Positions 9,575 to 60,497 of a stretch of 64,000 bases of DNA are shown piece after piece (positions within the stretch are counted from its first letter, which is position 1; the number at the start of each line of letters is the position of its first letter). A model generated the notes under the pieces. It was not told where the DNA came from, made no database searches, and saw only the letters and a program-made list of their open reading frames with translations. The position numbers and the translations under genes are program-made. The DNA is from Eledone cirrhosa (Eukaryota), in NCBI GenBank assembly GCA_964016885.1, contig OZ024742.1, positions 60,388,001 through 60,452,000 on the forward strand, given 5' to 3'.

Positions 9575-9767
9575 AACGAAGGAAATGTGGTAAGGAACCA
9601 GGTGGACCATAACGCACTAAAGTACTCAATACTTAGGGTAGTAGAGTGGGTAATAGGAACAAGTAAGACCCCGACGGCTGAGCTCAAGCCGTTTCGACGG
9701 CTAATCCAGTCCAGAATTAGCCGTCGAAACGGCTTGAGCTCAGCCGTCGGGATCTTACTTGTTCCTA
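9575..9767. mobile_element. Minimal fold-back of PLE family C 3' end (half-HHR arms) in (TA)n
   Basis: Arms 9653-9705 / 9715-9767; same termini as 33660-35543 and 60312-60497. Confidence 0.9.
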
Positions 9768-9789
9768 TATATATATATATATATAACTC

Positions 9790-9925
9790 ATCTTATTTCT
9801 CCCGATTTAAACTGTTCTAGTACCGTAGAAGCCATTTCTATATTAAATATTTATACCTTGCTATGCATTAAGTACCTTTCTTACTATGGTTATTCCCGAT
9901 TGAACCCTTGATAAACTTATATATA
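9790..9925 (+). repeat. Degenerate copy of the family forming the 29330-29512 fold-back
   Basis: ttctagtaccgtagaagccatttctatattaaatatt is the reverse complement of ~29391-29427. Confidence 0.6.
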
Positions 9926-10642
9926 CATATACTTGAAAAAGGAGTGAGGTTCTATACAAAGCAGAGGTTATATAGAAAAGGTGGAATTGGAAACAGCGCG
10001 GAAAATATATTTAAAGGATCTGTTTTTCTTATTTTGTTCTTCTTTTATCCCTGAAAGTAACATTATTGAAAAAATGAGAGGAGTATTTTTTTTTAAAAGA
10101 GGAGTTTTATAATGTATATAAAATATATCAAATGTAGCCGGTCTCGATGTATCGGTGTAATCCATCTTACCAAATGTTAGTTAGAAGAAGACTGGGTCAA
10201 AAACGGAACTATATATTTATAGAGAGAGGTGGTCATAGCAGTAGTAGTGGTTGTAGTCGTGTCTTTTCACATCACACAATTATTTTTAGGGAGAGCCCAT
10301 TTTTCCGTATATACGTGTTTACCTCAATTGTGTTAAAGGACTGGTCAAGCATTCAGATGGGGCTGGCGAAGAGGGGAAATGTAAGCTAGAGAAAATTGCT
10401 ATAGAGGAGAGAGGTATATATATATATATATGATTGTCAAAAGTATAGGATTGTAAAAGGAATTCTATTTTATGAATATGGTTTTAGAACATGAGTGCGT
10501 ATGTGTGTGTGTGTATGTGTATGCGAGAGAGAGAAGAGAGAGAGAGAGAGAGAGAGAGAGAGAGAGAGAGAGAGAGAGAGAGAGAGAGAGAGAGAGAGAG
10601 AGAGACTGGGAGAGTATATGTGTTTATATATATATACATATA

Positions 10643-10995
10643 TATTTAATTAGAAAGTGAACAACACAAAATATAGCTACTCCATTGCTAAAGGTTTCTG
10701 GCTCACATACGCTAATAATATACGTCTGGATCGTTCGTCAGATAGAAATGTTATGGATAACAAAAATGAAAAGAGATTTAAAATCTGTTACAGATTAAAA
10801 CTCTCATTTCATATTTTTTATCTAAAACATTTCTATCTGACGATCGATCCAGACGTATATTATTATCGTCTGTGATCCAGAAACCTTTGGTAATGTAGTA
10901 ATTATATTTTGTGTTGTTCACTTTCTAATTAAATAGCCCTGTTCTATACATAGAACACTCTTATTTCTTTTGCTTTTCCTTTGCAATTACCTAAC
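10643..10995. mobile_element. Fold-back insertion with HHR in each arm (10680-10748 -, 10831-10898 +)
   Basis: ~140-bp arms; ttctat-CTGACGA-..gatccagacg..cgtctgtgatc..-GAAA-cctttgg-TA; same family as 63488-63695. Confidence 0.8.
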
Positions 10996-56198: not shown

Positions 56199-59087
56199 TA
56201 TTATAATTAACATGTGCTAAAATATCTAAACAGTGATTGAGACATCTCAAACATGGTTATGGCTTCAGTACTTTCCGTTTAAACAATAAAGGTAGAGTAT
56301 ATTTAATGATACCGAAGCTGTTATGTTTTTATATTCTTTTCAGTTGCTGAACTAGAGATACAGCAACCCCCCCCCCCCCTGCATGGATTAAAACTAATAA
56401 TATCCAAACTTATGCCCTGATGTGTCATCATACGTTTTAAGTATCAGATTCAGATCCAATTTGAGTTAACTTTCATATTTGCGTGGTCTTCCTATATTTT
56501 CTCCAGTAAAATCAGTCAATATGTTTTAGATTGTTATCTACTCAAGGGGATTGTAATTATAGTTATTTAATATTTTCCGGCTCACTACATCCTGTATGTT
56601 TGTGGCTACTTACCTATTTGTTCTAAATGTAGAGTTTAATTTCTGACACCTATTTGAATCAAATTACATTTCGTGACTTCATGAGGATCATTTCTTCTTC
56701 TTGTTGAAATCTACGCCGACGAATAAAAAAAGCAAAAGAGTATGATAATGTTCATAATTTAACATTCCCCTTGTCAAATCGGAGCAGACAAATTCAAATA
56801 CAGAAAGAATATTGCAATATTGTTCATAATGCAACATTATGTACGAATGCAAGCACCTACTTGTTCGTAGTCTAGGCAGAAAACAAGGATGAGTAACGTC
56901 TTTCAGTTGCATTTTTAACTAAAGATATATTTTTATAATTTAGTAGGAGATATTTCCCCTGTTATAGAAAACATAAACGCTCCTGTAATATGACGATTTA
57001 ACAGTAAGCCCCTTAACTGTTTGATGTTTATGCAGAAAGTGACCGTGGCTAATATCTCTCTGTAACTTCTCTTTCTAAATTAGAACCAGTAACATGTGTG
57101 CCGGAAATATTTCCATTGTTGACGATTCTACACGGAGATAATGAAAATCACACTCTCACACACAAAGGATTTTTAATGTTTAGAATGCGTCATTAAGTAT
57201 ATTTGCAGCCACTTAACTCTTTGGCCTTCATGCAGATAGCGCCCAATTGTAATATCGTGCAACCACCACTATCACATGAGATAAGTTGGACATATGTTTG
57301 CCATTTGTTTGGAAATTTTTCTATGCATTGACAAATCTTTGCGAACAAATTGAAAAATTACGCAAACACAATTGCGCACACACACACAGGTACACACACA
57401 AGTACTCGTTATGTTGTTTATAGTTCAGTTACAGTAAATATGCTTCAATGGAAAGAGCATCCATCTTTTTTCTGAATGCTTAAAGTATTTATATTTTAGA
57501 TATATTTCCATCATGCTGCAATAAATCAACTGAATAAATGAAAGAATATTAGGAAAGAAAAAGGTTGCTGAATGAAGAAATAAAAGAAAGAAGATGACTA
57601 TATCTATAAATTGAATAATAAAAGAAAAGAAATATATATTAATTTGAAGGAGAAAATAGAATTCTAGTAATAGAATGAAGGGTTTTTGGTTTTTTTTTTC
57701 ATGTGAGTTTCCAGGATACTTCGAACTAACGAGTATATCTCCATGTAGCTCATGGACACTTTAAAATTATCATTGGAAGAGAATGTACTATTTTAATTGA
57801 AGGAAGAAATAGCGTATCTTTTTTGTTTTCTTTTCTTACAGTTTATTGAGTGGGGAGAGGGCTATGACCGAGACTGCAACATTGGTGGAAAAGGGAGAGA
57901 GAGAAAGAAAGAAAAATAAGAAAGAGGAAGAAAGAAAAATAAGCAAGAGAAAGAAAGAAGGAGAAAGAGAAAGAGAGAGAGAGAGATAGAGAGAGAGAGA
58001 GAGAGAGAGAGAGAGAGAGAGAGAGAGAGAGAGAGAGAGAGAGAGGGGAGATATCATAAACCTAAAGTTCTGTCCAAAATGCTTGTGGTAGAGCGATAAA
58101 CTCGTCTAAATACTACCACAAGGAAGGTTAAACAAGGATGTGGTTTATGGATCCCACCTAAGAAGGCCACAGAGATTAAAATAGTGTTGTTACTGTTGAT
58201 TTCCAATTTAGCCACAAGGCCAACAATTGGATGACGTGGGACGTTGATTAATTCCAGTACTTGACTGTTACCTTATTTTCTCGACTTCGAAATGATGAAA
58301 GGCAAAGTTGGCCTCTGCAGAATTTTAACTCAGAATGCAGAGAGCCACGACAAATACTCTTTCTCTCTTTGCATTTCATCCCTCTGTGGTCAATAAAATA
58401 AAGTACCAGTTTCCTACTTGGTTGATTCAATCGACTACTGGCCTTCTGCCTAAATTAGAAACGATTATGATTGTCTATTTTCCTTCTGAGTTCAAATTTT
58501 GCCGATATTAAATTTGTCTTCCATTTTTCCGGATCTATAAAGTGAGGTATAAGTTAAATACTCGGGTCTATGTATTCGACTTTCCCCTTGCCTAGAAATA
58601 ATTATTATGATTTATTTTTTGCTGAATATTCATGGAGGGCAGTTTAATAGACATGATCATACTTTACAGGTCATACGGAAACAGGGAAGTAACCTCAAAC
58701 AGGATATCAACTTCCATGCATAAATAGAATCGCGTCTTGTAAGGACAAGAGCCAGTTAGTGTCAAGCCGGAGGACAGATTAAGTCTATCATGCGAGTAAG
58801 TCACACCGTAATTGGAAATCAGAATGCAAAGAACCGGAAGAAATATTGCAAGACATCATGTCTAAAACTCTAAAATTTCTGAAATAAAGATGACTTCTCC
58901 ACAACCATCACCCCCACCACTGCTGTCGCCGCTGACGCCACGACCACAATTCTACTATTGCGTCTAATTTAGAAACAATTTCTATTAAAAGTTATATTAC
59001 CTTACGTTTATAATATTATTCATATATACACATAAAGCAGTAAATACACACAGACACACACACACTCATATATATATATATATATAT

Positions 59088-59430
59088 ATATATATATATA
59101 TATATATAGCGCCTACCCGGGGTGTTATATATATGTATATATAATTATATGTATATATATATATATATATATATATCTTTATATATATGTATATATAATT
59201 ATATATATATATATATATATATATATATATATCTTTATATATATGTATATATAATTATATATATATATATATATATATATATATATATATAATTATATAT
59301 ACATATATATAAAGATATATATATATACATATATATTTAAAGATATATATATATATATATATATATATATATATATATATATATATATATATATATTTAA
59401 AGATATATATATATATATATATATATATGC
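59088..59430. repeat. Compound (TA)n array, representative of several dozen (TA)n, (CA)n and (GA)n tracts in the window
   Basis: Direct reading; internal higher-order units such as ctttatatatatgtatatataatta and tttaaagata. Confidence 0.95.
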
Positions 59431-60311
59431 ATATAGATGTACATATGTATACATCTTCATATACACAAGTGTATAGATAGGTATGCACCGTTATATATAT
59501 GTATATATATATTTAAGTGTATGCGTAAATATTTAATTATGCACTAACCACTGTAATATTTCTCACATTATCGCATTTTATTCACTTCCCTTTTCTCCTG
59601 ATGATTAAATCAACGGTCAAAATGTCACCCCTTCATTTTAGGTGGGTGTATAAAACGCCTACAGTTAATATTATCAGATTAACAAGACGACAAAATTGTA
59701 AACACTCTCCCGCATAATAAGATACAATGACAACAACAACAACAACACCCATAAAACAATAAAAGCCAATCAAATAAAAAATAAACAACAAGCAGCTGAA
59801 AAGGAAACGAATATTAATAGAAGTGCATGGTGTTACGGTTCTGTGAGTATAACAACGAATCGATTATTTATGAAGCAGTGTTTAATGTAGCGACCTGTCA
59901 ATAATGTAATGGAACTCAACATTATCGGTACAACAGATTTAAACAACTTGTTGTGTTGTGGCGACGGTGACTTAACGTTGTATACACACAGGTATTGGTT
60001 ATAAATTTAGTGGTAGTAAATAAATCGATGACGTTGATTATTATAGCGTACAATCAGCCATGTCAATATGGAGGCATAACGTAACGTGGAATCAGACTGG
60101 ATTATCCAGTCTGTTCTGACCAGATTTTCTTTTTTTGGCGGGGGAAGCAATATAACAAGGAACATGTCCATATCTATATGTATCTTCCTCCTCCCCTCTC
60201 TGTCTCTCTCTCTCTCTCTCTCTCTCTCTCTCTCTCTCTCTCTCTATATATATATATATATATATATATATATATATATATATATATATATATATATATA
60301 TATATATATAT

Positions 60312-60497
60312 AACGAAGGAAATGTGGTAAGGAAACAGGTGGGCCATAACGCACCAAAGTACTCAATACTTGGGGTAGTAGAATGGGTAATAGGAACCAG
60401 TAAGACCCCGACGGCTGAGCTCAAGCCGTTTCGACGGCTAATTCGAATTAGCCGTCGAAACGGCTTGAGCTCAGCCGTCGGTGTCTTACTGGTTCCT
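60312..60497. mobile_element. Minimal fold-back of PLE family C in (TA)n
   Basis: Palindrome centred on ctaattcgaattag (~60444); same outer ends as 9575-9767. Confidence 0.9.

What the first reader, a model, noticed from the sequence alone, without database searches (positions are those of the whole stretch)
9575..60497. Reproducible asymmetry: the two arms end at two different fixed points downstream of the ribozyme
Seen: three family C insertions with different centres (9575, 33660, 60312) all end at ..gttccta on one side (~17 nt after GUC) and ..ttcgtt on the other (~98 nt after). Family A (5812, 49908), family B (6850), the 36042 complex and the ORF-less fold-backs at 10643, 11028, 12446, 16737, 28597, 46936, 62776 and 63488 also have one arm about 35-140 nt longer at its outer end. 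In the four ORF-bearing fold-backs the main strand uses the proximal end and the inverted arm uses the distal one. Known: Penelope pLTRs can have a short 3' tail extension. Inference: two ordered priming events at distinct UA-containing sites.
Basis: partly seen in the sequence, partly recalled or inferred. Interest (0 to 1): 0.72.

Follow-up and report, generated by a model that had tools for sequence, protein, structure and literature searches.

The report
Penelope retroelement tails with conserved hairpin
These jumping-gene insertions have one arm longer than the other, which is the already described 'tail' of Penelope-like elements, but the tail here also carries a small conserved RNA hairpin that may tell the enzyme where to start copying.

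Summary
In 17 of 18 fold-back insertions in the window the two arms end at different sites, 34-130 nt apart; for family C both ends are abundant in public reads. The ORF-bearing copies are Penelope-like elements (PLEs), mostly Hydra clade, in (TA)n. The extra piece is the known PLE 'tail': described as optional at one end of inverted insertions (Arkhipova 2013; Craig 2021) and mapped in vitro to two reverse-transcription start sites (Frangieh 2024). So the core is in print. Not found in the papers searched: (1) one-of-each pairing of the two sites within an insertion, with the longer arm proximal in 9 of 10 assignable cases; (2) 3-8 nt microhomology to the target at the proximal site in 8 of 12 families; (3) a bulged hairpin in the tail of nine window families and of distant Hydra elements, with compensatory changes, starting 0-10 nt after the proximal end (one case 20). 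Best model: both nicked target strands prime reverse transcription on one RNA, at two hairpin-positioned sites, and the cDNAs join head to head. The order of priming is not shown.

The parts
9576..9705 (-). Family C fold-back 9575, arm with tail (distal end 9576; tail 9576-9653; hairpin 9624-9647)
9706..9767 (+). Family C fold-back 9575, arm ending at the proximal site, 10 nt longer at its inner end
33661..33757 (-). Family C inverted arm: tail plus 19 nt; inner end falls on the predicted ribozyme cut site (single case)
33758..35542 (+). Family C main strand: 5'-truncated GIY-YIG remnant (33752-34315), 3' UTR, hammerhead with U3-A8 core (about 35428-35530, 8-nt insertion at the cut site), proximal end
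60313..60497 (.). Family C fold-back 60312, symmetric centre 60444/60445; left arm distal, right arm proximal
14532..14609 (-). Family C solo tail, exactly distal-to-proximal, between (TA)n runs; fits loss of the palindrome from a fold-back (inference)
5813..6583 (.). Family A fold-back 5812; left arm with 40-nt tail, right arm longer and proximal
49917..51816 (.). Family A insertion: main strand on minus with CCHH-type GIY-YIG remnant, proximal end 49917; inverted arm 51289-51816 with tail
6850..9364 (.). Family B (Hydra-type): main strand minus 8403-6850 proximal; inverted arm 8398-9364 with 87-nt tail, hairpin 9280-9325
43458..45110 (-). Family B solo copy ending at the distal site, hairpin 43496-43541
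36042..38892 (-). Family D inverted 5'-truncated copy with 91-nt tail, interrupted by two other repeats
38890..43396 (+). Family D partial tandem: truncated copy, pLTR, tail (39596-39686) running on into the decayed RT-EN body, 3' pLTR ending at the proximal site
10643..10995 (.). ORF-less fold-back, family F, tail on right arm, hairpin 10936-10956
63487..63693 (.). ORF-less fold-back, family F, tail on right arm, hairpin 63636-63656; proximal end 10 nt earlier, into (CA)n with ACA microhomology
11030..11425 (.). ORF-less fold-back G (related to D), 91-nt tail, hairpin 11339-11362
12446..12938 (.). ORF-less fold-back H; 55-nt extension on the arm that is also longer inside (exception to polarity); no hairpin, no second copy
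16737..17156 (.). ORF-less fold-back I; 34-nt extension, symmetric centre; no clear hairpin, no second copy
28593..29250 (.). ORF-less fold-back J; long arm minus with full hammerhead (28742-28673), proximal; short arm with 118-nt tail, hairpin 29142-29165
29333..29512 (.).
46936..47495 (.). ORF-less fold-back K; 130-nt tail with long-loop hairpin 46985-47063; solo copy 28380-28565 ends at the same distal site
55452..56207 (.).
62777..63326 (.). ORF-less fold-back L; 93-nt tail, hairpin 63238-63258
858..1927 (.). Retrozyme-like 317-bp tandem with inverted arm; both arms end at the same site (exception)

Best explanation
These are Penelope-like retroelement insertions (B, C, D of the Hydra clade; A a CCHH-type PLE; the ORF-less ones non-autonomous or heavily truncated relatives). 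The protein, probably a dimer, binds the RNA at a conserved bulged hairpin in the tail, nicks both strands of a palindromic AT-rich target, and both 3' ends prime reverse transcription on the same RNA: one just 5' of the hairpin (proximal site, helped by 3-4 nt of pairing with the target), one 30-85 nt 3' of it (distal site). The distal enzyme runs behind the proximal cDNA, so it usually stops early; where both run off the same RNA end the centre is symmetric. A template jump from one cDNA onto the 3' end of the other joins them head to head. Shown here: paired use of two ends, microhomology, hairpin conservation, one target duplication. From papers: two start sites, both strands cut and extended, predicted dimer (Anolis element). 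Inferred: same RNA molecule, hairpin as binding site, order, the final jump.
For: 17 of 18 fold-backs use one site each. Both ends abundant in reads of two runs. 55460 is bounded by one 8-bp palindromic duplication, so both ends belong to one event. Longer arm proximal in 9 of 10; two short arms are tail-only or nearly so (33660, 55460), and 9 of the 15 joints shown leave the tail-bearing arm inside the tail. 7 of 18 centres are symmetric within 7 nt. In locus L011 (same insertion in L018) the tail-bearing arm skips almost exactly the stretch covered by the proximal arm. Hairpin: 93% of cells paired, 5 of 7 pairs with changes on both sides, 0 of 500 shuffles; a model trained on 4 non-window sequences puts its 10 best of 23 window hits all in tails on the sense strand; tails are about 3% of the window. 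Frangieh 2024: two adjacent RT start sites bracket the tail, both strands cleaved and extended, dimer predicted.
Against: Exceptions: 857 (same end twice), 12446 (long arm distal), 43458 (1.6 kb solo from the distal site). Frangieh 2024 saw no difference in start site between strands and no homology between start site and target, whereas microhomology is seen here. No hairpin seen in A, H, I, M or 857, and D's is decayed. Single hits of the independent model are weak (E 0.13-1.5), and the structure was drawn up after seeing window sequences. The L011 skip is one ancestral event and could be a later deletion. The joints are limited to what the short reference can show, and the reverse arrangement is harder to detect there. 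Symmetric centres fit self-priming as well.
Confidence: 0.6

Rival explanations
1. One priming plus self-priming: the cDNA started at the distal site folds back (or an antisense template is used), a plus strand is made, and it is cut or stalls at the hairpin foot and is joined to the target by microhomology. The proximal end is a resolution site, not a start site.
For: Arkhipova 2013 argues self-priming from palindromes at inverted junctions; Craig 2021 ascribes the tail to EN-mediated resolution; 7 symmetric centres; proximal end abuts the hairpin and shows microhomology.
Against: In 33660, 6850, 49908, 36042, 28597 the proximal arm holds 0.3-1.8 kb or more that the distal arm lacks, so it cannot be a copy of it without an extra antisense template. 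Both sites act as RT start sites in vitro in Anolis. G-U pairs in the hairpin suit RNA.
Confidence: 0.2
2. Two primings in different repeats of a tandem transcript: the proximal one at the 3' pLTR end where read-through (UA)n pairs with the target, the distal one in the upstream pLTR-tail junction, the only place a tail exists if the source copy ends proximally (L1-like geometry, second primer upstream).
For: In D the tail lies only after the upstream pLTR; TA microhomology at the proximal end; the 33660 inverted arm stops at the ribozyme cut site, a possible RNA 5' end.
Against: Does not predict symmetric centres (7 of 18) or the L011 skip; inverted arms of B, A and D run 0.5-2 kb past the ribozyme; proximal ends into (CA)n or (CT)n shift to a matching spot (63488, 29406).
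Confidence: 0.15
3. Artefact or later decay: the longer arm is flanking DNA up to the next microsatellite, or later deletions trimmed one arm.
For: 12446 and 16737 have no second copy; palindromes are unstable (14532 looks like a deletion product).
Against: Tails are shared between separate insertions and end at the same base; thousands of reads share both ends; hairpin conserved in other genomes.
Confidence: 0.03

Closest known systems
PLE 'tail' (Arkhipova 2013 PMC3846280; Craig 2021 PMC8557442)
   Same: [quoted passage not shown]
   Different: Published length 30-40 bp; here 34-130 nt, the spread coming from the hairpin loop and the stretch after it. The passages read give no count of pairing or polarity and Craig's main text has no 'hairpin' or 'stem-loop'.
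Anolis Poseidon PAc two-site initiation (Frangieh 2024 PMC11167929)
   Same: Two RT start sites bracket the tail; AT-rich targets; both strands cut and extended; initiation near a stem loop.
   Different: Different clade; start sites non-homologous to target there, microhomology here; that paper does not tie one site to each arm of an inverted insertion in the text read; its AC-rich stem loop was not compared with this hairpin.
Hydra clade PLEs (Craig 2021)
   Same: RWK-like, DKT, CxCX5C, CxxC, CxH motifs, no CCHH, C-terminal EN, (TA)n targets, hammerheads; a cephalopod member is listed; two published consensus sequences carry the same hairpin.
   Different: Family D unit is about 3.8 kb against 'generally <3 kb'; C has a U3-A8 ribozyme core (a known variant).
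L1 twin priming (recalled; no paper on it read here)
   Same: Second target strand primes a second cDNA on the same RNA, giving an inversion.
   Different: In L1 the second site lies upstream at a variable place and arms do not overlap; here it is fixed, downstream, and the arms overlap as a palindrome.

Membership tests
Hydra-clade PLE | RT followed by C-terminal GIY-YIG EN in one ORF | tested here: met
   Family D matches residues 58-668 of the intact 699-aa L001 ORF in order; ORF is decayed. B and C keep only the EN part.
Hydra-clade PLE | RWK and DKT motifs | tested here: met
   D has RWR and DKT; L001 has RWK and DKT. Not testable in truncated B, C.
Hydra-clade PLE | CxCX5C linker; CCHH absent; CxxC and CxH around E and N | tested here: met
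   CxCX5C in B and D; C has Ser for the second Cys; no Cys pair inside GIY-YIG in B, C, D; CxxC in all three, CxH in B and C.
Hydra-clade PLE | Insertion into (TA)n | tested here: met
Hydra-clade PLE | Hammerhead in the pLTR | tested here: inconclusive
   C: stems I-III and a U3-A8 core by inspection, not recovered by Rfam or my descriptor; B has no canonical core; cleavage untested.
Hydra-clade PLE | Placement in the RT phylogeny | not tested
   No tree built; reference sequences were seen only in a paper supplement.
Family A as Hydra-clade PLE | CCHH absent | tested here: not met
   A has two Cys between GIY and YIG, Pfam GIY-YIG E 0.00036; it is another EN+ PLE clade, not determined.
PLE tail | Extension at one end only of an inverted insertion | tested here: met
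   17 of 18
PLE tail | Equals the sequence following the upstream pLTR | tested here: met
   D, M and L001/L002
PLE tail | Length 30-40 bp | tested here: not met
   Only A (40-41) and I (34) fit; others 55-130 nt. A typical value in the papers, not a strict criterion.
PLE tail | Bounded by two RT start sites | not testable with these tools
   Shown only for PAc in vitro.
L1-type twin priming | Staggered cut with target duplication around the whole unit | tested here: inconclusive
   Seen once, 55460; hidden in (TA)n elsewhere.
L1-type twin priming | Second primer anneals upstream of the first; arms do not overlap | tested here: not met
   Arms overlap and the second site is downstream in unit coordinates; feature recalled, not read.

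The most novel reading that the evidence does not exclude
Hydra-clade PLEs use a conserved bulged RNA hairpin as a ruler: one dimeric RT-EN holds it and starts two cDNAs on the same RNA, one on each side of the hairpin and one from each target strand, proximal first. This would be a programmed double-priming integration with no plus-strand primer, explaining tail, fold-backs and symmetric centres at once, and a telomerase-like use of an RNA structure to set the template start in the sister group of telomerase.
Probability: 0.3. Interest if true: 0.72.

Novelty: new variant of a known kind. Interest (0 to 1): 0.42.

Why it matters
How PLEs make their tandem and inverted insertions is stated as open in Craig 2021 and Frangieh 2024. 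The asymmetry itself is known. What this adds is testable detail: each insertion takes one of each start site, and a hairpin conserved across distant hosts sits at a near-fixed distance from one of them. That names a cis-element to mutate in the existing in vitro assay and a marker for finding PLE ends in annotation.

Tried and rejected
No genome is held for the window, so no genome-wide map of paired ends. Exact search for a family C motif in metagenome contigs: 0 hits. Protein search for full-length relatives of the C endonuclease: 135 candidates, none at E<=0.001; uninformative. Rfam: microRNA hits are microsatellite and fold-back noise, hammerhead hits all below the curated threshold. No RNA holder listed. 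Naiad membership considered and dropped: EN is C-terminal in D. 'Fixed distance from the ribozyme' rejected across families. 'Inverted arms stop at the ribozyme cut site' seen in 1 case only, not general. Automated microhomology anchors failed for 4 of 17 rows (A49908, F63488, L62776, D distal) and were read by hand; L62776 was not counted as positive. One row (F10643 distal) is a script miss; 10995 is read. Minimum-energy folds recover the hairpin fully in only some tails. Of 22 related loci only L001-003, L004/L016, L011-013/L018-019, L010 and L014 informed on tails; the rest were truncated or redundant. Earlier scan notes by place and by sequence: none.
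Full report
Setting. The window is AT-rich animal-type DNA full of microsatellites; no genome is held. Self-BLAST after masking microsatellites, plus reading, gives 18 fold-back insertions of PLE type.

Observation. In 17 of the 18 the two arms end at different points; 857 is the exception. The three family C insertions use exactly the two ends named. 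Extensions are 34-130 nt. They are element sequence in 15 of 17: shared with a separate insertion or with the element body in 13, marked by the hairpin below in 2 more; 12446 and 16737 stay unverified. With independent choice at p=0.5 the chance of 17 or more discordant of 18 is 7e-5, copies of one family not being fully independent. The 55460 unit is bounded by one 8-bp palindromic duplication, so its two ends come from one event.

Reads. Public runs were found with the C element and four were laid on 9570-9930. In raw reduced-representation run X16, 3,738 of 22,994 laid reads pass into (TA)n at the proximal site and 9,415 run off the stretch, almost all at the distal end; X17 gives 3,446 and 10,388 of 23,537. 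Contigs of X1 (92) and of a second organism X5 (3) show the proximal end too. Depth along the tail is flat. These are amplified reads, not insertion counts; reads resembling human DNA are dropped; 611 loose-end rows and 66 joints were hidden. So two abundant ends are shown for C, not their pairing. Nine of the 15 joints shown leave the tail-bearing arm inside the tail, i.e. very short distal arms occur repeatedly, though the reference favours seeing this arrangement.

Identity. B, C and D proteins carry the Hydra-clade marks of Craig 2021 (section read): RWR/DKT in D, CxCX5C in B and D, no CCHH, CxxC and CxH. The intact 699-aa ORF of metagenome locus L001 has all motifs and matches D over RT then EN. 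A is a CCHH-type PLE. The 36042 complex has the published layout: inverted truncated copy, partial tandem, full copy; its tail is the start of the body after the upstream pLTR. C's ribozyme has a U3-A8 core by inspection, a variant reported by Cervera and de la Pena 2014.

What is in print. [quoted passage not shown] Craig 2021 (passages, section 11, supplement searches): 30-40 bp tail often at only one end, ascribed to EN-mediated resolution. Frangieh 2024 (parts 1-3 of 4; its supplementary figures gave labels only, and may show more on genomic ends): RT starts at two adjacent sites that bracket the tail; both strands are cut and extended; dimer predicted. Schostak 2008, Cervera 2020 (passages) and a 2026 retrozyme preprint (part 1 of 5 and passages) have no 'tail' hits. 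Pyatkov 2004 and Evgen'ev and Arkhipova 2005 were not read. An earlier scan note on another genome reached the same 'known pattern' verdict (unchecked). The asymmetry is therefore known.

What the window adds. (a) Polarity: the arm that reaches further inward is the proximal one in 9 of 10 assignable cases (33660, 49908, 6850, 36042, 55460, 28597, 5812, 9575, weakly 63488; exception 12446), p=0.02, or 8 of 9, p=0.04, without 63488. Seven centres are symmetric within 7 nt. Solo copies end at either site (43458, 28380, 9786 distal; 4754, 4929 proximal). (b) Microhomology: 3 or more bases fit both element and target repeat at the proximal end in 8 of 12 families (A in one of its two copies), against 6-25% expected per family, P about 2e-5 (2e-4 without A). 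(c) A hairpin in the tail: a 4-bp outer helix (RCUC with GAGY), a 2-nt 3' bulge, an inner helix of 2-5 bp and a loop of 3 to about 60 nt. It is seen in B, C, E, F, G, J, K, L and decayed in D, not in A, H, I, M or 857. It starts 0-10 nt after the proximal end (20 in 29406) and ends 32-85 nt before the distal end. It is in metagenome loci L001-003, L011-013, L016, L018-019 and, less surely placed, L010 and L014, and in two published Hydra consensus sequences, one of which begins with it. On 11 chosen sequences 93% of cells pair and 5 of 7 pairs change on both sides, 0 of 500 shuffles, slid controls far lower; the set was picked for having the motif. A relaxed scan gave 44 hits, 11 in tails, and all 8 exact-consensus hits in tails. 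A model trained only on 4 non-window sequences ranks tails as its 10 best of 23 hits, each weak alone. Paper searches listed nothing on such a hairpin or on twin priming by PLEs; the library lacks most subscription papers. (d) In L011, and its counterpart L018, one arm ends proximally and the tail-bearing arm skips from near the ribozyme to within about 8 nt of where the proximal arm stops: what two cDNAs on one RNA would give, but a single event.

Mechanism. Most likely (0.6) both target strands prime on one RNA at two sites set by the hairpin, and the cDNAs are joined head to head by a template jump. Two-site initiation and two-strand activity rest on the Anolis assay; same-molecule use, the hairpin's role, the order and the jump are inferred. 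Self-priming with resolution (0.2) fits symmetric centres but not long proximal arms; priming in two repeats of a tandem RNA (0.15) fits D and 33660 but not symmetric centres; artefact (0.03) is largely excluded.

Verdict. Real, and at its core the known PLE tail. The longer tails, paired use of sites and conserved hairpin make it a modest new variant with a direct test. Interest 0.42.

Noticed in passing
window 14023-14385 (-) and 17757-18163 (+): Two more Hydra-type endonuclease remnants; the second runs to a hammerhead at 19199-19253 and ends in (TA)n at about 19292 without a hairpin, a likely solo proximal end.
   Followed up: partly
window 60540-62720 (+): A different GIY-YIG element of CCHH type with a long microsatellite-like 3' region, directly after the 60312 fold-back.
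   Followed up: no
window 63745-64000 (-): End of another element with a canonical minimal hammerhead core at 63860, inserted in (TA)n.
   Followed up: no
window 21231-21431, 36543-36736, 36830-36990, 48914-49135, 53559-53672, 58196-58587: Abundant dispersed SINE-like repeat; two copies interrupt the inverted arm of the 36042 complex.
   Followed up: no
window 23505-23590 (-): Diverged C-like fragment that keeps the tail hairpin with a different bulge.
   Followed up: partly
window 9477-10430, 43397-43457, 12935-12999: Several PLE copies share one (TA)n tract from both sides: nested targeting of earlier insertion sites.
   Followed up: no
window 35515-35522: An 8-nt A-rich insertion sits at the predicted ribozyme cut site of the 33660 main strand, while its inverted arm begins at that same site.
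   Followed up: no
L001 54-84 and 115-142: Two copies of the hairpin in a row before the start codon; the published Hydra-1_Ajap consensus shows the same doubling. L001 assembles as a 2.4-kb circle or tandem unit.
   Followed up: partly
window 2328-2945 and 51858-52848: An old diverged inverted repeat, and a 637-bp-spaced direct repeat next to the 49908 insertion; neither fits the PLE pattern.
   Followed up: no
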